The position numbers and the translations under genes are program-made. The notes below the pieces were generated by a model that saw only the letters and a list, made by a program, of their open reading frames with translations, did not search any database and was not told where the DNA came from. Of a DNA stretch of 64,000 nt, positions 14,638 through 35,000 are shown piece after piece. Source of the DNA: a virus; the IMG/VR virus record IMGVR_UViG_3300035696_000013, positions 68,624 to 132,623 of that record; one strand, written 5' to 3'. The stretch's first letter is position 1. Every line of letters begins with the position of its first letter.

Positions 14638-14871
14638 ATGAATTTTATTGACATTCTTAGCTGGACAGGTAATGTATTTATCTGTTTAGGTCTTTGGTAC
14701 ATCGGGACTAAAAAGTGGTGGGCATTCTTGTTCTCTATTATAGGCGAAGCAGTTTGGTTCGTTTATGCTATTGAAATTCGCATGTGGTCTTTAGCTTTCA
14801 TAACAGCAGTGTTTGCGGGTTTAGCGGTTCGTAATCTGTATCTTTGGAGGAAAAATGGCAGGTTCGTATAA
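14638..14871 (+). CDS. small 3-TM membrane protein (PnuC/PQ-loop-like)
   Basis: three TM helices, W-rich, ends in YLW. Confidence 0.45.
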   Translation: MNFIDILSWTGNVFICLGLWYIGTKKWWAFLFSIIGEAVWFVYAIEIRMWSLAFITAVFAGLAVRNLYLWRKNGRFV

Positions 14872-15214
14872 ACATTGCATTACGCCTGAGGGAAAATTCA
14901 GAAGCGAAGATTTCACTGATATGATAGAAAATCTCAGCGATGCTTATGAAGCATGCGAAGAAATGGTTTTCATGATTGATTTTCTCGCTGATGGTGATAG
15001 CTGTCGCATAGAGAATGCATTAGAAGCTTTTTATGCTTCTAAACAAAAAGAAATTGAAATGAAAAATGACTCAGAATTTGGTACAATAATTGGAGACGTA
15101 CATGGTGGTCAAATCATTTTAACCGAAACAGGTCAAAAGGTCTACCTCTCAATGGCTTTTAATCCCCTCACTGCTCAGCAACTGAAGGAAATTAAGGAAC
15201 AAATGGATGCTTAA
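14855..15214 (+). CDS. hypothetical protein
   Basis: GGAGG SD, 119 aa. Confidence 0.6.
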   Translation: MAGSYKHCITPEGKFRSEDFTDMIENLSDAYEACEEMVFMIDFLADGDSCRIENALEAFYASKQKEIEMKNDSEFGTIIGDVHGGQIILTETGQKVYLSMAFNPLTAQQLKEIKEQMDA

Positions 15215-15423
15215 GGATTCTTAGAAGTAAATGATAATAACAACTGTTAAACTCTATCCCGAACTTTTGATGTGGCCAGATGATTCATTTACATTAGAAT
15301 CCATTTGCCCTAAAGATTTTACAGAAACACCGAAAACACCAATTTTTCGTGGTTTTCCATATATTGGACCTGAAGTTGATTATAGAACAGTACAATGCAA
15401 TCTTTAAAATCAATCGCTAACGA

Positions 15424-15454
15424 ATACCTGATTTTTCGCTGTCTGCCGTATTAT
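15424..15454 (+). promoter_or_regulatory. phage promoter (TACCTGA-N16-GTATTAT) of tRNA array 1
   Basis: same bipartite motif and spacing as at 16611, 18752, 19391, 19673, 30247 and 54008. Confidence 0.7.
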
Positions 15455-15460
15455 ACGAAC

Positions 15461-15532
15461 ATGAACACGAATCTAAATTCGCACTTGTATACGCTGCTTA
15501 ATGGCAGCTGCGGCGAGATGTTGCTGGCCTAA
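15461..15532 (+). CDS. leader peptide MNTNLNSHLYTLLNGSCGEMLLA (putative attenuator of the Tyr/Leu tRNA array)
   Basis: ATG 6 nt after the -10 box (leaderless); Leu codons CTA, TTG, CTG, CTT and Tyr TAT match the downstream tRNAs. Confidence 0.7.
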   Translation: MNTNLNSHLYTLLNGSCGEMLLA

Positions 15533-15556
15533 AAACACTAGCAACCGATCGCAAGC

Positions 15557-15586
15557 AGCCGCCCGATGTGGCGGCTTTTTTATTTT
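15557..15586 (+). terminator. attenuator terminator
   Basis: AGCCGCC-cgatgt-GGCGGCT followed by TTTTTATTTT immediately before tRNA-Tyr. Confidence 0.85.
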
Positions 15587-15588
15587 AT

Positions 15589-15676
15589 GGAGTGGAAGTC
15601 ACAATGGTGTGACAGGAGGCTGTAACCCTCCCGCCCCTTGTGGGCACGATAGGTTCGATCCCTATCCACTCCACCA
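15589..15676 (+). tRNA. tRNA-Tyr(GTA)
   Basis: GGAGTGG/CCACTCC acceptor, CTGTAAC loop, long variable arm, GTTCGA, encoded CCA. Confidence 0.9.
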
Positions 15677-15739
15677 AGCTACAACGGTCCCGGTAGTCCT
15701 CTTCGGGCAACTGTGCGGGAATGGGAAAACCGCAACTAT

Positions 15740-15828
15740 GCCAGAGTGGTGGAATTGGTAGACACACTACGCTCAGAACGTAGCGGCAATTAACAGCCGT
15801 GCGGGTTCGAATCCTGTCTCTGGTACCA
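15740..15828 (+). tRNA. tRNA-Leu(CAG)
   Basis: cloverleaf, CTCAGAA loop, long variable arm, CCA. Confidence 0.92.
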
Positions 15829-15886
15829 AGTTTGATATATAAGGACATATATCTGTAGTAAAATGATATAATGTCGTATATACAGA

Positions 15887-15972
15887 GCGCCTGTGGTGAA
15901 ACGGCATACACGCTAGCTTGAGGTGCTAGTGATCGCAAGATCGTGGAGGTTCGACTCCTCTCAGGCGCACCA
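15887..15972 (+). tRNA. tRNA-Leu(GAG)
   Basis: GCGCCTG/CAGGCGC, TTGAGGT loop, CCA. Confidence 0.92.
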
Positions 15973-15992
15973 AAATCCTAGTATTAATCTGT

Positions 15993-16484
15993 ATGGATAA
16001 GAAATCCAAACAGTTAGGCATGAATTTTAGCACAGCATCTGCAAGATTAGATCGTATGATATTATTCATGCTGGTGAAAGAGTGCAATCGTGATACATGT
16101 TATCGTTGTAATAAGAAAATTGAACGATACCAGGATCTAAGTACGGAGCACAAAGAACCTTGGCAGGACATTGATTCAGCTTTGTTTTGGGATTTGGATA
16201 ACATTTCATTTTCACATCGTAGCTGCAATGCTGCAGCTGGAGCACGAGGCAGGTTGCCTGGAAATGAAAAAGCCTCTAAAGCTCCTTTTGGGACCGTATG
16301 GTGTTCGGGGCATAAAGATTATTTGCCTAAAGAAAATTTTCATCGGGAAGCTCGTAATAAAAGTGGTTTTTCAAGCTTGTGCAAAAAATGCTATAAAGAA
16401 CGAGAATATCCTGGTAGTTATGGCCGAGTGGCGAAATTGGTAGACGCGCATGGCTTAGAACCATGTGAGCTTGATCACTCGTAG
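15993..16484 (+). CDS. HNH-family endonuclease (homing-type) inside the tRNA array
   Basis: CYRC, STEHKEP, N.SFSH.SCN, C-terminal Zn-finger; 3' end overlaps tRNA-Leu(TAG). Confidence 0.7.
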   Translation: MDKKSKQLGMNFSTASARLDRMILFMLVKECNRDTCYRCNKKIERYQDLSTEHKEPWQDIDSALFWDLDNISFSHRSCNAAAGARGRLPGNEKASKAPFGTVWCSGHKDYLPKENFHREARNKSGFSSLCKKCYKEREYPGSYGRVAKLVDAHGLEPCELDHS

Positions 16485-16510
16485 GGGTTCGAATCCCTTC
16501 TCGGCCTCCA
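16422..16510 (+). tRNA. tRNA-Leu(TAG)
   Basis: GGCCGAG/CTCGGCC, CTTAGAA loop, CCA; discriminator is T. Confidence 0.88.
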
Positions 16511-16516
16511 AAGATT

Positions 16517-16603
16517 GGCCGAGTGGTGGAACTGGTAGACGCGGTAGCCTCAAAAGCTACTTCTCGCAAGAGAGTGGGGGTTCGACTCCCTCCTCGGTCA
16601 CCA
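16517..16603 (+). tRNA. tRNA-Leu(CAA)
   Basis: cloverleaf, CTCAAAA loop, CCA. Confidence 0.92.
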
Positions 16604-16657
16604 AATTATCTTACCTATCCCGTTGTTATCCTCCGTAGATTAAACATGGAGGATTAG

Positions 16658-17062
16658 ATGCTGTACTTCTCAAACAAGTGGGACATACTTGACATGGAAG
16701 ACCTCGCAGGAGGTCTCCAAATAGTCAGTCAGGGTCGTAGTAATCCTCCTATTGTCTTAGTTTACGTCTTCAATAAAGAAAAACAAATCTATTTTTACGA
16801 GATCTTTCGATGCCCGGTTACTCTAATGGGATTGGCCGAAGATCCCGATGCAATCATGGAAGCCAAATCAGAACAGGAAGCAATTGATATCCTGAACGGC
16901 ACCAGTGATGTCGCTGCGGCTGATATACTGATTGACCTTTCTGAAGGTCGTCCAGCTGGAGGCAGCAAGACCAAGCTACTCTTTAAGGGCACTCATCCCG
17001 CTACAAAGACAGCCGAATGGGTTCAAGCTTATTTGCAATCCATTGTCCCAGAAGTTTTATAG
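16658..17062 (+). CDS. hypothetical protein
   Basis: GGAGG SD and promoter motif at 16611. Confidence 0.6.
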   Translation: MLYFSNKWDILDMEDLAGGLQIVSQGRSNPPIVLVYVFNKEKQIYFYEIFRCPVTLMGLAEDPDAIMEAKSEQEAIDILNGTSDVAAADILIDLSEGRPAGGSKTKLLFKGTHPATKTAEWVQAYLQSIVPEVL

Positions 17063-19381: not shown

Positions 19382-19427
19382 TTTTCTTGTTTACCTGATT
19401 TTTCCGTTTATCCCGTATTATACAAGT

Positions 19428-19657
19428 GGAGAAAGCGGGACCAGTAGGTTCTAAATTCTTCCCCCGAAATTGGTGACGACCTGCTTAAGGGTTGCGCAGC
19501 CCAAGTTGCCGAGGACGGGATTATAGTCCACTGTAAGAGCAGGGGTTTCTAGAGCCTTGTGGTGGACAGATAACTAAGCTAAGGTATGGAACATCAGACG
19601 CCAAATTGCGGCGTCGAGGAAGCAGGGTTAGTGAAGATGCTGACCCTGCTTTTTCTT
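19428..19657 (+). ncRNA. stand-alone ~230-nt structured RNA
   Basis: lies between the promoter at 19391-19421 and the terminator at 19621-19657; nested stems; no good + strand ORF. Confidence 0.55.
19621..19657 (+). terminator. intrinsic terminator
   Basis: AGCAGGGTTAGT-gaagat-GCTGACCCTGCT followed by TTTTCTTT. Confidence 0.85.
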
Positions 19658-19672
19658 TTAGAAAGAATTTCT

Positions 19673-19703
19673 TTACCTGATTTTTCAACTTTCCACGTAT
19701 TAT
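19673..19703 (+). promoter_or_regulatory. phage promoter of tRNA array 2
   Basis: TTACCTGA-N16-GTATTAT. Confidence 0.7.
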
Positions 19704-19815: not shown

Positions 19816-19878
19816 ATGCGATTTATGAACCCAATGATGCGACCGCCTATGTCGCTCGGGGATGGTACTGGTGGTTAA
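19816..19878 (+). CDS. leader peptide MRFMNPMMRPPMSLGDGTGG (putative attenuator of the Pro/Met/Phe tRNA array)
   Basis: 5 Met, Pro CCA/CCG/CCT and Phe TTT in the first 12 codons; 3' half pairs with the downstream hairpin arm. Confidence 0.65.
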   Translation: MRFMNPMMRPPMSLGDGTGG

Positions 19879-21742: not shown

Positions 21743-21819
21743 GCCGTCGTAGCTCAAGGTGCATAGAGCATCTGATATTTAATCAGAGGGTTGAAAGGCG
21801 CTACTTTCCGACGGCTCCA
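21743..21819 (+). tRNA. atypical tRNA-Lys(TTT)-like
   Basis: GCCGTCG/CGACGGC, TCTGA-TATTTAA-TCAGA (A33), T-loop GCGCTA lacks TTC; CCA. Confidence 0.55.
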
Positions 21820-22703: not shown

Positions 22704-23335
22704 TCCGGTTGGCCAGAGATGCCAAGCACCTCTGAGAGACGCTGGCGTCTCGCGCTAACCGAATCAATTTCGCTAGTGCTGTGACATTACAGCTTGTTTG
22801 CAGTGCACGTGGCAACCGGGCCGCACATCCGGACTAGCGATTTCTAGTTTGTGCGTCATGGGAGAACCGATGCCAAGAAATTATTGGTAAGTTTCCATGG
22901 ACTCGGCGGTACGAGAGCAGTAAATAAAATTGAATCCCTGGTATCCAGGCAACAAGATCGGTGGCAGACTTACAGGTAATCAATCCTGGTGCCTCGCCTT
23001 AATGGAAAAGCATCCAGCCGTCGCTCGTTGTCTGAATATCAGGGATTTGATTCGCTGCTCTTGGAATTTGTAGGTTTCCTGCTTCCTAAAAGCAGGTGGC
23101 GGAGTGGTCGGCGTGAGCGTTTCCTACTTCGTAAAAGTAGGTGATGGACCGATGTATCGTAGCCCCGTTTTTCACTTCGTAAAAGTGAAGATAGTCCCAG
23201 CCCTAATAATGACTGGGTGGTTGCTAAACCCCGCACGTTTCCAGACGTAAACTGGATGGTGGAGGCGACCTGAGAAATCGGGTCGCCCCAGTAGTTTTGG
23301 TGAAAGTTATGAATCGCAAACGCTACACAACCGGA
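22704..23335 (+). ncRNA. large structured non-coding region (one large RNA or an array of small RNAs)
   Basis: 630 nt with no credible ORF, dense stems and repeated hairpin motifs, between tRNA-fMet and tRNA-Phe. Confidence 0.6.
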
Positions 23336-32495: not shown

Positions 32496-35000
32496 ATGAT
32501 TTTTACGGCTCCATTCCTAAGAACAGCAGACCAAGAAGAAGGGGAACAACGCATGTTCCACGGCCTTCCGATCATTATCGAAAATGAGAAAGGATCTGTC
32601 CGAGAAGGTGTCAATGCAGATGGAAAAACTTGGGAACGTCTTATGCATTGTGACTACGGGTACATACCCGATACCGAAGGAGCCGGGGACAAGGAAGGTT
32701 TAGACGTTTACATTGGAGACGACAAGAATTCTCCGTATGCTTACATCGTCGAACAGCTAGATGACGAAGGACAATTTGATGAATACAAGGTCTTACTGGG
32801 ATTTCCAGATCTGACTTCGGCTGAGGAAATGTATGATAAGCATTATCCAGCAGGTTGGGGAGAAGAGCATGTTGGAGAAATCTGGGAAGTTCCGTTGTCT
32901 ACTTTGTCCAAAGGCGTTAAACACGAGCAACAAAAAGAAGATCAAAAATACGGCAGTACAAAGTGGGGATTAAGATATCACGGAACTACTGTAGAAAATG
33001 CAAAATCCATTTTGAAAAATGGATTAAAACCTTCCGGTAAGCCGCTTCTAAAAGGCGAACCTCCAAGCGATCGAGTGTACGCTGTAGACACTAAAGCCGA
33101 TGCTATCGTGTACGGACTTATGCAGTCTAAAAGTGATACTTGTGCTGTTGTAGTGATAAGGAATAGAGTGGGATTTCCTATCAATGAAACCTTTGGATAT
33201 CAAGGAATGGTTCCTCCCAGCGATATAGTAAGAGTCGAAATTTACGAAAGACCCAAGGATAAAGATTGGGGACCTACAGAAAGCAACGAACATCCAAAAC
33301 TTCCTAAGCTTCTTAAGATTTTAAAGCCTGAACAGCAAAAGGAAGATCAAAAACATGGTAGTGTAGACTTGCAAGCAGATCCATCTAAAGTTTCAATTCA
33401 ACAAACTGGAACAGGTCAGTACACTTTTAAACATGAAGGAGTAGACGGTTATTTGACTGCCATCAATACTTCTAAAAATCCAAAGAAACAAGGACTTATG
33501 GTAGTAGAATCCTTGATTGAAGAATCTTTCCGTGGAAAAGGTTATGGAAAAGCACTATATCAAGCGGCCTTAAATGCTGCAAGAAAAGCTGGATATGCAG
33601 AATTTTGCTCCGAACCGCTTCCTCTAGTTTCTGAAGATGCAAAACATATCTGGCAATCTCTAGGAGCAGTTATCTCTAAGAAACAGGGGGAAGAAGCTTA
33701 TAGGATAGATATCTCTGGAATGCCCAAGACATCTTTCGACGCAGTTAAGGAATTTCTCCGAAGCTATGATTTTGAATTCTACGAACAAGTGGCTGAAGAA
33801 GTTCGAGAAACTCTAGAAGATTTACTCAATGATGCAGGAATTCGAGCCTTAGTTACTTGTCGTGCTAAGAAAGTAAAGAGCTTGCGTCGAAAGCTGGAAC
33901 GCCGAGCACCTGATAAGAATTATCAAAATTTAATCGACATACAAAAGGACATCAAGGATTTGAGTGGCGTTCGGGTAGCTCTATATTTCCCGAACGATCG
34001 TGCAGCTGTAGAGCAGTTAATCGCCGCTAATTTTGAACAAGCTCGTCCACCAAAGCATTTTCCTGAAGAACGAGAGCCACAAGATTCCGATCACTATGTT
34101 GCAACTCACTATACTATTTGGTGGGAAAAGACAGTAGTAGAGATTCAAGTAGCCTCGTTGCTTATGCAAGCTTGGAGTGAAGTTGCTCACGACATGGTCT
34201 ATAAGCCGTTGGTGGGAGAATTGTCTCCACTTGAATTGAACATCATTGGCGAATTAAGCGATTTAATTGGAATAGGCGAAGCAACCTTAGAAGATCTTCA
34301 AACTGAGTATGAAGAACGTGCTGGTAAGAAGTTACGGTTTGAACTTGTAAGTGCTCTACAGAAAAAGTTAGGTGCTTTGAAATACAAGCAACGGGATAGA
34401 GATGTTGTTTTCTTTCGACAACGATTAGGTTCGGCACAATTGTACCAAAACAAGATACAGGAAGCTTGGCATATTGTATCCAGTGAGAATATGCGTCGTA
34501 TTGCAGCAACGGGACAATACTTCTACCACTCTACTCTATCCAAGAATCTAAACTCCATTGCTAAAGAAGGTCTTAAGCCTTCTACCAATCCACAATGGGG
34601 AGGAGAATTGGCTGATTTTAGTATGGGCAAACTTTTATTGAATCCTACTCCTAAAGGAGCGATGTACTATGGATTGCAATTGTTCTATCGTTATCTGCAG
34701 AATCAGGAAGTAAGTTATATTCCTCTCTGTTTGCGCGTGCGTATAGATAACGAAGAACTTTTTGAAGACAAACAATCTATAGGCGGAGATGTATGGACCG
34801 ACGCAACTATTTCTCCCAACAGAATCGAAGTGTGGTGGCAGGACAAGTGGCAGCCGTTGAAGTCGAACAATTGGTGGTCAGAATTTGAATATCATCAGCA
34901 AGAAGATGGAACCTGGACTGACTGGGAAGGAACATTGTTTAATAATATCCCAGATGTTGAACGAGATGTAAAATCTTTTGTCTTACCTAAAGCCGCTTAA
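32496..35000 (+). CDS. polyvalent protein: PPase-like + ART-like + GNAT + RelA/SpoT + ART-like
   Basis: ENEKGSVR/DYGYI/DEYKVLLG; YHGT; RGKGYG; RAK..S..RK, DLSGVR, EIQ, HDMVYK; YHST..I.KEGLKP. Confidence 0.75.
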   Translation: MIFTAPFLRTADQEEGEQRMFHGLPIIIENEKGSVREGVNADGKTWERLMHCDYGYIPDTEGAGDKEGLDVYIGDDKNSPYAYIVEQLDDEGQFDEYKVLLGFPDLTSAEEMYDKHYPAGWGEEHVGEIWEVPLSTLSKGVKHEQQKEDQKYGSTKWGLRYHGTTVENAKSILKNGLKPSGKPLLKGEPPSDRVYAVDTKADAIVYGLMQSKSDTCAVVVIRNRVGFPINETFGYQGMVPPSDIVRVEIYERPKDKDWGPTESNEHPKLPKLLKILKPEQQKEDQKHGSVDLQADPSKVSIQQTGTGQYTFKHEGVDGYLTAINTSKNPKKQGLMVVESLIEESFRGKGYGKALYQAALNAARKAGYAEFCSEPLPLVSEDAKHIWQSLGAVISKKQGEEAYRIDISGMPKTSFDAVKEFLRSYDFEFYEQVAEEVRETLEDLLNDAGIRALVTCRAKKVKSLRRKLERRAPDKNYQNLIDIQKDIKDLSGVRVALYFPNDRAAVEQLIAANFEQARPPKHFPEEREPQDSDHYVATHYTIWWEKTVVEIQVASLLMQAWSEVAHDMVYKPLVGELSPLELNIIGELSDLIGIGEATLEDLQTEYEERAGKKLRFELVSALQKKLGALKYKQRDRDVVFFRQRLGSAQLYQNKIQEAWHIVSSENMRRIAATGQYFYHSTLSKNLNSIAKEGLKPSTNPQWGGELADFSMGKLLLNPTPKGAMYYGLQLFYRYLQNQEVSYIPLCLRVRIDNEELFEDKQSIGGDVWTDATISPNRIEVWWQDKWQPLKSNNWWSEFEYHQQEDGTWTDWEGTLFNNIPDVERDVKSFVLPKAA

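What the first reader, a model, noticed from the sequence alone, without database searches (positions are those of the whole stretch)
15424..16603. Codon-matched leader-peptide attenuator controlling a phage Tyr/Leu tRNA array
Seen in sequence: a promoter (15424-15454), then a 23-codon leaderless ORF (15461-15532, MNTNLNSHLYTLLNGSCGEMLLA), then a U-tailed terminator (15557-15586), then tRNAs Tyr(GTA), Leu(CAG), Leu(GAG), Leu(TAG) and Leu(CAA). Codons 5-13 contain CTA, TTG, TAT, CTG and CTT, which is one codon for each of the five downstream anticodons. There is no TTA codon and no Leu(TAA) tRNA. The 3' half of the leader (15503-15527) can pair with 15538-15563 (GGC/GCC, GCTGC/GCAGC, GCGA/TCGC, GTTGCTGG/CTAGCAAC), which sequesters the 5' arm of the terminator. 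Established: this is the logic of trp/leu/his ribosome-mediated attenuation. Inference: a ribosome stalled on hungry Leu/Tyr codons lets the antiterminator form, so the phage makes replacement tRNAs only when those host tRNAs are depleted, for example by anticodon nucleases or starvation. I do not know of leader-peptide attenuation described for tRNA genes. Caveat: the Asn, Thr, His and Ser codons in the leader have no partner tRNA in this array.
Basis: partly seen in the sequence, partly recalled or inferred. Interest (0 to 1): 0.95.

Follow-up and report, generated by a model that had tools for sequence, protein, structure and literature searches.

The report
Leader-peptide attenuator gating phage tRNA genes
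In this giant phage a tiny gene rich in leucine and tyrosine codons, wired to a switchable transcription stop, sits just before a block of leucine and tyrosine tRNA genes, so the phage probably makes these tRNAs only when such codons are read slowly.

Summary
A phage-specific promoter motif is followed by a 23-codon ORF (15461-15532), a long hairpin, a strong U-tailed terminator and five tRNA genes: Tyr and four Leu.

The window lies in a 132.6-kb fragment of a giant phage. That genome has three tRNA arrays, and each follows a small ORF written in the amino acids of its own array.

I fetched 38 related loci. All 17 distinct Tyr/Leu arrays among them keep the same unit:
- the ORF, with indels in multiples of three;
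- the terminator;
- an ORF 3' strand that covaries with the terminator's 5' arm.

Leader composition tracks array content. Examples are Ser-rich leaders where Ser tRNAs join the array, TTA codons with tRNA-Leu(TAA), and a merged leader before a merged array.

This supports a ribosome-mediated attenuator controlling tRNA genes. Function remains an inference, because I have no expression data.

Weak points:
- The "one codon per anticodon" match is not beyond chance once amino-acid content is fixed.
- Some leader codons are unmatched.
- The switch must be kinetic.

Seven literature searches found no published account. Earlier notes of this scan report the same kind of element in other giant-phage genomes.

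The parts
15426..15454 (+). Promoter-like motif ACCTGATTTTT-N11-CGTATTAT, with -10 box TATTAT at 15449-15454. The -10 box ends 6 nt before the ATG.
   Evidence: There are 3 copies in the window against 0.00 expected. The -10 element GTATTAT recurs upstream of leaders in relatives. The generic sigma-70 scan did not call it.
15461..15532 (+). Leader ORF of 23 codons, MNTNLNSHLYTLLNGSCGEMLLA. Leu/Tyr codons sit at codons 5, 9, 10, 12, 13, 21 and 22.
   Evidence: Sequence. 7 of 22 codons are cognate to the array and 5 of 5 anticodon species are covered. A homologous ORF is present in 17 of 17 distinct relatives. The reading frame is conserved.
15493..15508 (+). Hairpin GCUGCU/GGCAGC (regions 1:2). 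It overlaps the CTG and CTT codons and ties up the start of the antiterminator strand.
   Evidence: Part of the minimum-free-energy fold of 15455-15590 (-47.8 kcal/mol, z -4.04).
15503..15563 (+). Antiterminator hairpin (regions 2:3). The 3' part of the ORF pairs with the spacer and with 6 of the 7 bases of the terminator's 5' arm.
   Evidence: -31.8 kcal/mol, z -3.84. Its own partner ranks 1 of 19 in the cross-pairing test. A narrower duplex test gave only z -0.97.
15539..15549 (+). 11-mer TAGCAACCGAT shared with the genome's GNN leader. Its TAG is in frame in both leaders: it is the stop codon in the GNN leader and a second in-frame stop here.
   Evidence: read directly from the sequence.
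15557..15586 (+). Intrinsic terminator: stem-loop AGCCGCC-CGAUGU-GGCGGCU followed by a U tract that ends 2 nt before tRNA-Tyr.
   Evidence: The stem is present in 18 of 18 aligned leaders, with 96.8% of cells paired, 3 pairs with compensatory change and 0 of 500 shuffles as high.
15589..15676 (+). tRNA-Tyr(GTA)
15740..15828 (+). tRNA-Leu(CAG)
15887..15972 (+). tRNA-Leu(GAG)
15993..16484 (+). HNH endonuclease ORF inserted in the array. Its 3' end overlaps tRNA-Leu(TAG).
   Evidence: Pfam PF01844, 26.3 bits against a cut-off of 21.4.
16422..16510 (+). tRNA-Leu(TAG)
16517..16603 (+). tRNA-Leu(CAA)

Best explanation
This is a ribosome-mediated (leader-peptide) transcription attenuator that gates a phage tRNA operon.

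Proposed mechanism:
1. Transcription starts at or just before the ATG at 15461.
2. A ribosome translates the 23-codon leader while RNA polymerase proceeds.
3. If Leu and Tyr codons are read quickly, the ribosome reaches the end of the ORF and covers or unwinds the ORF's 3' strand (15503-15527). The terminator (15557-15586) then folds, and transcription stops 2 nt before tRNA-Tyr.
4. If the ribosome lingers on the Leu/Tyr codons at 15473-15499, the 3' strand stays free and pairs with 15538-15563. That holds the terminator's 5' arm, and polymerase reads on into tRNA-Tyr and the four tRNA-Leu genes.

The products raise the supply of the very tRNAs being sensed, so the loop is self-limiting.

Shown here: the anatomy, its conservation, the conserved reading frame, the covariation of the two helices, and the match between leader composition and array content.

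Inferred: translation of the leader, stall-dependent read-through, and the physiological trigger (low host tRNA supply, poor charging or tRNA cleavage).
For: (1) Anatomy in the window.

(2) Three arrays in one genome (27 tRNAs). Each leader matches its own array:
- GNN leader: 22/33 cognate codons, 12/12 anticodon species.
- Tyr/Leu leader: 7/22, 5/5.
- Pro/Met/Phe leader: 8/19, 5/6.
- Mismatched leader/array pairs give 0-5 cognate codons.
- Among 1218 small ORFs, only 1, 12 and 1 (the leader itself included) do as well on both measures.

(3) Relatives. The 389-aa upstream protein has 227 homologues, and 38 related loci were fetched.
- 24 of these loci carry a Tyr/Leu array, 17 of them distinct.
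- All 17 have a 23-33 codon ORF (one by its internal ATG) ending 54-95 nt before tRNA-Tyr; in L016 the distance is 302 nt.
- A GC hairpin plus U tract was found in 19 of 19 leaders.

(4) Reading frame: 83 of 84 gap runs inside the ORF are multiples of 3, against 13 of 54 after the stop. The ATG is invariant in 18 of 18.

(5) Helices:
- Terminator: 96.8% of cells paired, 3 compensatory pairs, 0/500 shuffles as high.
- The ORF 3' strand pairs with the terminator 5' arm in 19 of 19, with z below -2 in 15 of 19.
- Own pairs average -30.3 kcal/mol and crossed pairs -20.7; 0 of 20000 permutations do as well.

(6) Covariation of content:
- The true leader-array pairing is the single best of 6, 120 and 2 permutations in three genomes.
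- The three leaders whose arrays hold Ser tRNAs have the three highest Ser shares of 20.
- TTA occurs in 4 of 4 leaders with tRNA-Leu(TAA) and in 4 of 16 without (Fisher P 0.014, not corrected for relatedness).
- 5 of 6 further arrays in two relatives have a matched leader.

(7) Ribosome-position model. The terminator's 5' arm is sequestered with probability 0.83-0.85 when the ribosome is stalled at codons 5, 9 or 10, and 0.28 when it is at the stop codon.
Against: - There are no expression, ribosome or 3'-end data.
- The sigma-70 scan did not call the promoter and the -35 region is not canonical. The polymerase that transcribes this unit is unknown, so transcription-translation coupling is assumed.
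- At equilibrium the terminator still wins in the window (stem probability 0.71-0.78 even with a stalled ribosome). The switch therefore has to be kinetic.
- My first model, which allowed pairing across the ribosome, did not discriminate (9 of 19). The model was chosen after that result.
- With no ribosome at all, the model predicts the antiterminator (0.83), unlike trp superattenuation.
- The codon-level match is not beyond chance given the peptide (P 0.34; 0.13 and 0.49 for the other two leaders).
- Asn, Thr, Ser and His codons in the leader have no partner in the array.
- The 17 leaders whose arrays lack Ser tRNAs still carry 1-7 Ser codons each, and TTA occurs in 4 leaders whose arrays lack tRNA-Leu(TAA).
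- An extended -10-like TGATATAAT at 15864-15872 could transcribe the three distal Leu tRNAs independently.
- One of six extra arrays (L055) showed no matched leader.
- The Pro/Met/Phe leaders have no U-tailed terminator.
Confidence: 0.7

Rival explanations
1. The unit is a translation-coupled attenuator that reports general translation capacity or amino-acid charging rather than the supply of these particular tRNAs. Any slowing of ribosomes opens the array.
For: With no ribosome, the model already favours the antiterminator (0.83). Many leader codons have no partner tRNA. The codon-level match is not significant.
Against: Leader composition differs between arrays of one genome and follows each array's own content. 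A general sensor would not need that.
Confidence: 0.15
2. The ORF is not regulatory. The unit is a small transcript (an sRNA or a micropeptide gene) with its own leaky terminator. The tRNAs are made by constitutive read-through or from internal promoters.
For: The terminator is strong and dominates at equilibrium. A possible internal promoter lies at 15864-15872. No expression data exist.
Against: Only 2 nt separate the U tract from tRNA-Tyr, so there is no room for a promoter. Paralogous leaders change composition with their arrays. The ORF 3' strand covaries with the terminator's 5' arm, which a simple terminator does not need.
Confidence: 0.06
3. The polarity is reversed. Efficient leader translation promotes read-through because the ribosome melts the terminator, as in pyrBI-type control.
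For: The ORF and terminator lie close together.
Against: The stop codon ends 24 nt before the terminator stem. A ribosome at the stop would reach the antiterminator but not the terminator. The same spacing holds in relatives.
Confidence: 0.05
4. The leader is a T-box-like RNA that reads uncharged tRNA directly through codon-anticodon pairing, without translation.
For: It sits before tRNA-related genes and has a terminator/antiterminator choice.
Against: No T-box or other curated family matches: nothing at E up to 1 over 10 kb and nothing credible at E up to 10 over 201 bases. The cognate codons lie in one conserved reading frame with an invariant ATG and frame-preserving indels.
Confidence: 0.03

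Closest known systems
Multivalent leader-peptide attenuators of enterobacterial amino-acid operons (leu, thr, ilvGMEDA, his, trp). Named from my own knowledge.
   Same: A short promoter-proximal ORF enriched in the sensed amino acids, alternative 1:2, 2:3 and 3:4 hairpins, and an intrinsic terminator before the regulated genes. More than one amino acid is sensed by a single leader.
   Different: The regulated genes are tRNAs, not biosynthetic enzymes, so the product is the sensed molecule itself. The start is probably leaderless. There is no sequence or structure match to the curated leader families; the best is Phe_leader at 16.6 bits against a gathering score of 55. The element is phage-borne and modular, with one leader per isotype-sorted array.
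pheST (phenylalanyl-tRNA synthetase) attenuator of E. coli.
   Same: Leader-peptide attenuation applied to a gene of the translation apparatus.
   Different: It controls a synthetase protein, not tRNA genes, and senses a single amino acid.
T-box riboswitches
   Same: They sense tRNA status and choose between a terminator and an antiterminator.
   Different: They bind tRNA directly, have no ORF, and control synthetase or amino-acid genes. No Rfam match was found here.
Long tRNA array (trn operon) of Anabaena sp. PCC 7120
   Same: An accessory tRNA array that is silent normally and induced when translation is impaired.
   Different: Control acts at the promoter, through direct repeats bound by the repressor TrcR. 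The words attenuat, leader and terminator occur 0 times in PMC8421152 (passages read). For PMC10272220 I read the abstract only.
Earlier notes of this scan on other giant-phage genomes (e1-5618024, e1-5381190, e1-5326844 and others)
   Same: The same layout: a small ORF in the amino acids of the following tRNA block, plus a switchable terminator.
   Different: They concern other DNA and are unchecked AI notes. I did not examine those genomes and do not count them as evidence.

Membership tests
Ribosome-mediated (leader-peptide) transcription attenuator | Short ORF with a start codon directly behind a promoter | tested here: met
   The ATG lies 6 nt after the -10 box of a motif repeated 3 times. 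The ATG is invariant in 18 of 18 aligned leaders.
Ribosome-mediated (leader-peptide) transcription attenuator | The ORF is kept as a reading frame in relatives | tested here: met
   83 of 84 gap runs inside the ORF are multiples of 3, against 13 of 54 after the stop.
Ribosome-mediated (leader-peptide) transcription attenuator | Enrichment of codons for the sensed amino acids | tested here: met
   7/22 cognate codons against a background of 0.10. The true pairing is the best of 6, 120 and 2 permutations. The match is not significant at the synonymous-codon level.
Ribosome-mediated (leader-peptide) transcription attenuator | Intrinsic terminator between the leader ORF and the regulated genes | tested here: met
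   19 of 19 leaders; compensatory changes.
Ribosome-mediated (leader-peptide) transcription attenuator | Antiterminator that excludes the terminator and involves the ORF's 3' part | tested here: met
   (19 of 19 pair; own pairs beat crossed pairs; 0 of 20000 permutations).
Ribosome-mediated (leader-peptide) transcription attenuator | Anti-antiterminator (1:2) pairing that enforces termination without a stalled ribosome | tested here: inconclusive
   Hairpin 15493-15508 is in the minimum-free-energy fold. However, the no-ribosome model still sequesters the terminator arm (0.83).
Ribosome-mediated (leader-peptide) transcription attenuator | Leader translation and stall-dependent read-through shown by experiment | not testable with these tools
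   No RNA run is listed for this DNA.
Curated Rfam leader families (Leu, His, Thr, Trp, Phe leaders) | Covariance-model match above the gathering score | tested here: not met
   The best match is Phe_leader at 16.6 bits against 55, E 1.7. There were no matches.
T-box riboswitch | Stem I with specifier loop, plus the T-box sequence | tested here: not met
   No T-box match at E up to 1 or at E up to 10 on the leader alone.

The most novel reading that the evidence does not exclude
A large clade of uncultured giant phages runs its tRNA genes as separate modules sorted by amino acid. Each module sits behind its own multi-amino-acid leader-peptide attenuator, so each tRNA set is transcribed on demand when its codons are decoded slowly. 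This works as a self-limiting tRNA homeostat. It would also act as a built-in alarm against host tRNA depletion or cleavage. The leader's composition co-evolves with the content of its array.
Probability: 0.6. Interest if true: 0.9.

Novelty: new variant of a known kind. Interest (0 to 1): 0.85.

Why it matters
Leader-peptide attenuation is textbook for amino-acid operons, but I found no account of it acting on tRNA genes.

If it works as inferred:
- It gives the first cis-acting logic for how phages regulate their own tRNAs.
- It explains why the arrays are sorted by amino acid.
- It turns the question of why phages carry tRNAs into a testable one, because the leader states which decoding shortage each array answers.
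- It offers compact, modular sensors of decoding speed for chosen codons.

Tried and rejected
Searches that led nowhere:
- BLAST of 14800-17000 against cultured phages: 153 records matched, but only tRNA-sized pieces (at most 6% of the query), so no close relative was found.
- Single-protein scans of viral contigs with four neighbouring or conserved proteins gave 1, 0, 0 and 0 relatives. The one locus, L001, has no tRNAs.
- A scan for the promoter motif gave 10 stretches, each with a single match. Nine had no tRNA and one had a single tRNA. I judged them chance matches.
- A scan for the shared 11-mer plus U tail gave 1 stretch, an AT-rich chance match without tRNAs.
- A look-up of look-alike windows in this scan found nothing.
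- Sequencing runs: no RNA holder is listed. Read laying was not used, because DNA contigs cannot show expression.
- PHROGs on six neighbouring proteins gave one family of unknown function and nothing informative.

Modelling:
- Masking the ribosome footprint while allowing pairs across it did not separate stalled from terminating ribosomes (9 of 19).
- I then folded only the RNA 3' of the ribosome. That choice was made after seeing the first result.

Readings considered and rejected:
- T-box: no family match, and the cognate codons lie in a conserved reading frame.
- Functional micropeptide: composition changes with the array.
- pyrBI-type polarity: the ORF ends too far before the terminator.
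- Lambda-type minigenes: the ORFs have 20-43 codons.

Literature: seven searches found no paper on attenuation of tRNA genes. Subscription journals and supplements were not searchable. Supplements of the Anabaena papers, which hold the promoter mapping, were not seen.

Rows dropped or chosen:
- Of the 24 loci with a Tyr/Leu array, 7 had upstream sequence identical to another locus and were counted once.
- For L024, and for the Pro leader of L040, I used the internal ATG that aligns with the other leaders rather than the first ATG.
Full report
**What is there.** The window is the last 64 kb of a 132,623-base virus record that CheckV rates 41% complete, so it is a fragment of a giant phage. The parts, in order:
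- At 15426-15454 lies the motif ACCTGATTTTT-N11-CGTATTAT. It occurs three times in the window (15427, 19394, 19676) against 0.00 expected. The generic sigma-70 scan did not list it.
- Six bases after its TATTAT box, an ATG opens a 23-codon ORF, MNTNLNSHLYTLLNGSCGEMLLA (15461-15532).
- A 7-pair stem with 6 G-C pairs (15557-15576) and a U tract follow. The U tract ends 2 nt before tRNA-Tyr(GTA).
- Behind tRNA-Tyr come Leu(CAG), Leu(GAG), an HNH endonuclease ORF (Pfam 26.3 bits), Leu(TAG) and Leu(CAA).
- The region 15455-15590 folds at -47.8 kcal/mol (z -4.04, 0 of 200 shuffles as good).
It takes 6 of the 7 bases of the terminator's 5' arm.

**Is the codon match more than chance?** The whole genome holds 27 tRNAs in three clusters.
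- Looking upstream of the third cluster (Val, Gly, Asp, Cys, Ala, Glu), I found a 34-codon ORF at genome 53111-53215, MKNAAQVERDCNGATEPGVADAGTVSSDVIVEGG. It sits 6 nt after a TATAAT box and is followed by a terminator whose 5' arm pairs with the ORF's GUGUCCUCGG. I made this observation before reading any note of the scan.
- A third ORF, MRFMNPMMRPPMSLGDGTGG (window 19816-19878), precedes the Pro/Ser/Met/Phe cluster.
- Each leader matches its own array: 22/33 codons and 12/12 anticodon species; 7/22 and 5/5; 8/19 and 5/6. Against the other two arrays the leaders score 0-5 codons.
- Among 1218 small ORFs of the genome, the numbers that do as well on both measures are 1, 12 and 1, the leader itself included.
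- The match is at the level of amino acids. With each peptide held fixed and synonymous codons redrawn from the phage's usage, full anticodon coverage has P 0.13, 0.34 and 0.49.

**Relatives.**
- Close relatives were not found with single proteins or DNA motifs.
- The 389-aa protein just upstream has 227 homologues at about 50-58% identity, many on contigs of 100-460 kb.
I therefore aligned 31 sequences and fetched 38 related loci from viral contigs.
- Gene order is kept. 24 loci carry a Tyr/Leu array downstream, 17 of them distinct.
- All 17 have an ATG-started ORF of 23-33 codons rich in Leu, Tyr and Ser. One of these is counted from an internal ATG. Examples are MTRVTLSLSLLYTLLSGVGGGVFEG and MKNIAANLYLYLLLTSGCAEVCVG.
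- The ORF ends 54-95 nt before tRNA-Tyr, or 302 nt in L016.
- All are followed by a GCCGCC-type hairpin and a U tract.

**Evidence that the ORF is read as codons.** In the alignment of 18 leaders the ATG is invariant. 83 of 84 gap runs inside the ORF are multiples of three, against 13 of 54 after the stop codon.

**Evidence for the switch.**
- The terminator stem is paired in 96.8% of cells and has three pairs with compensatory changes (0 of 500 shuffles as high).
- In 19 of 19 leaders the last 48 nt of the ORF can pair with the terminator's 5' arm and the bases before it (-17 to -35 kcal/mol). The z-score is below -2 in 15 of 19. For the window it is only -0.97 in this narrow test.
- The two strands covary. 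Own pairs average -30.3 kcal/mol and crossed pairs -20.7. The own partner ranks first in 11 of 19, the window included. No random re-pairing out of 20000 does as well.
- This also explains why the peptide's C-terminal half looks conserved: it is the antiterminator strand.

**Does leader content follow array content?**
- I took two relatives, one a complete 463-kb genome, listed their tRNAs and fetched six further arrays.
- Five of the six have a matched leader with a terminator:
  - A Ser array with one Leu(TAA) is preceded by MNRISSLSSSSSSFGG..., whose only Leu codon is TTA.
  - A Trp/His/Arg/Asn/Gln/Cys/Lys array is preceded by ...MKHNTVARKQWRNRRH....
  - A GNN array has a leader with 24/42 cognate codons.
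  - A Tyr/Leu/Ser array has 14/27.
  - A merged His/Arg/Asn/Lys/Phe/Met/Pro/Gln/Trp array is preceded by MRNRKPNPMQWQPKRHF..., with 19/30.
- One array (L055) showed no such ORF.
- Within each genome the true leader-array pairing is the single best of 6, 120 and 2 permutations.
- The three leaders whose arrays contain Ser tRNAs have the three highest Ser shares of 20 leaders. TTA occurs in 4 of 4 leaders with tRNA-Leu(TAA) in the array and in 4 of 16 without (Fisher P 0.014, not corrected for relatedness).

**How it most likely works.** The layout is that of the classical attenuator.
- A ribosome held on the Leu/Tyr codons at 15473-15499 leaves 15503-15527 free to pair with 15538-15563. The terminator cannot form, and polymerase enters the tRNA genes.
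- A ribosome that runs to the stop codon covers that strand, and the terminator forms.
- I modelled this by folding only the RNA 3' of the ribosome. In the nascent RNA the terminator's 5' arm is sequestered with probability 0.83-0.85 for stalls at codons 5, 9 and 10, 0.38-0.43 at codons 12 and 13, and 0.28 at the stop codon. In 16 of 19 leaders the value at the stop is 0.30 or less.
- This model was adopted after a cruder one failed to discriminate, so it illustrates the idea and does not prove it.
- At equilibrium the terminator still dominates in the window (0.71-0.78), so the decision must be kinetic.
- With no ribosome the antiterminator is predicted, which differs from trp.

**Weak points.**
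- There are no RNA data.
- The polymerase, and hence transcription-translation coupling, is unknown.
- Asn, Thr, Ser and His codons are unmatched here, and Ser codons are common in leaders whose arrays lack Ser tRNAs.
- A TGATATAAT at 15864-15872 might drive the distal three tRNAs on its own.
- The Pro/Met/Phe leader family (MNTMRPFTMFRPC...) is conserved in 12 relatives but has no U-tailed terminator and carries conserved Arg, Thr and Cys. It may work differently.

**Comparison with what is known.**
- The element works like the multivalent leader-peptide attenuators of amino-acid operons.
- It is not a member of any curated leader family or of the T-box family.
- The nearest published case of a regulated accessory tRNA array is the Anabaena trn operon. 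That array is controlled by the repressor TrcR at the promoter.
- Seven full-text searches found no description of attenuation of tRNA genes.
- Notes of this scan report the same kind of element in other giant-phage genomes, and first-reader notes flag the two other leaders of this genome. I did not check the other genomes and do not count them as evidence.

**Verdict.** The feature is real and conserved, and it is best read as a leader-peptide attenuator of a tRNA operon. That is a new use of a known mechanism, and its function is still to be shown.

Noticed in passing
window 19816-19878 (with promoter motif at 19676-19703): A second leader ORF, MRFMNPMMRPPMSLGDGTGG, precedes the Pro/Ser/Pro/Pro/Met/Met/Phe tRNAs (8/19 cognate codons, 5/6 species). 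A conserved family (MNTMRPFTMFRPC...) is present in 12 relatives. It has no U-tailed terminator and carries unmatched conserved Arg, Thr and Cys, so its mechanism is unclear.
   Followed up: partly
genome G000:C1:53111-53280 (15.4 kb before the window start): A third leader, MKNAAQVERDCNGATEPGVADAGTVSSDVIVEGG, with a terminator, precedes the Val/Gly/Asp/Cys/Ala/Glu array. An HNH-looking ORF (53296-53699, judged by eye, not scanned) lies between the terminator and tRNA-Val.
   Followed up: yes
window 19394-19660: Another copy of the promoter motif is followed by about 230 nt without a credible ORF, ending in a hairpin plus T run. It is a candidate stand-alone small RNA.
   Followed up: no
window 15864-15872: An extended -10-like TGATATAAT lies between tRNA-Leu(CAG) and tRNA-Leu(GAG). 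It is a possible internal promoter that would bypass the attenuator.
   Followed up: no
window 23070-23155: A sub-threshold match to wcaG RNA (36.1 bits against a gathering score of 42, E 7e-4) lies in the ORF-poor stretch before tRNA-Phe.
   Followed up: no
window 21743-21816: Rfam's tRNA model matches here (41.3 bits), but ARAGORN calls no tRNA.
   Followed up: no
window 32496-35000 and 54635-56050: An 834-aa protein combines inorganic pyrophosphatase, RelA/SpoT and acetyltransferase domains. A separate protein has the TROVE and vWA domains of Ro60, an RNA quality-control protein. It lies in the same genome as many odd tRNA-like RNAs.
   Followed up: no
L055 (relative G001), reverse strand of the locus, 2436-2750: ARAGORN calls three tRNAs with anticodon CTA. 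They are candidate amber suppressors in a 463-kb relative.
   Followed up: no
genome G000:C1:51787-53050: A weaker copy of the promoter motif is followed by about 1.2 kb without long ORFs. The stretch contains several T-arm-like sequences (GGTTCGA.TCC), suggesting a run of tRNA-like RNAs.
   Followed up: no
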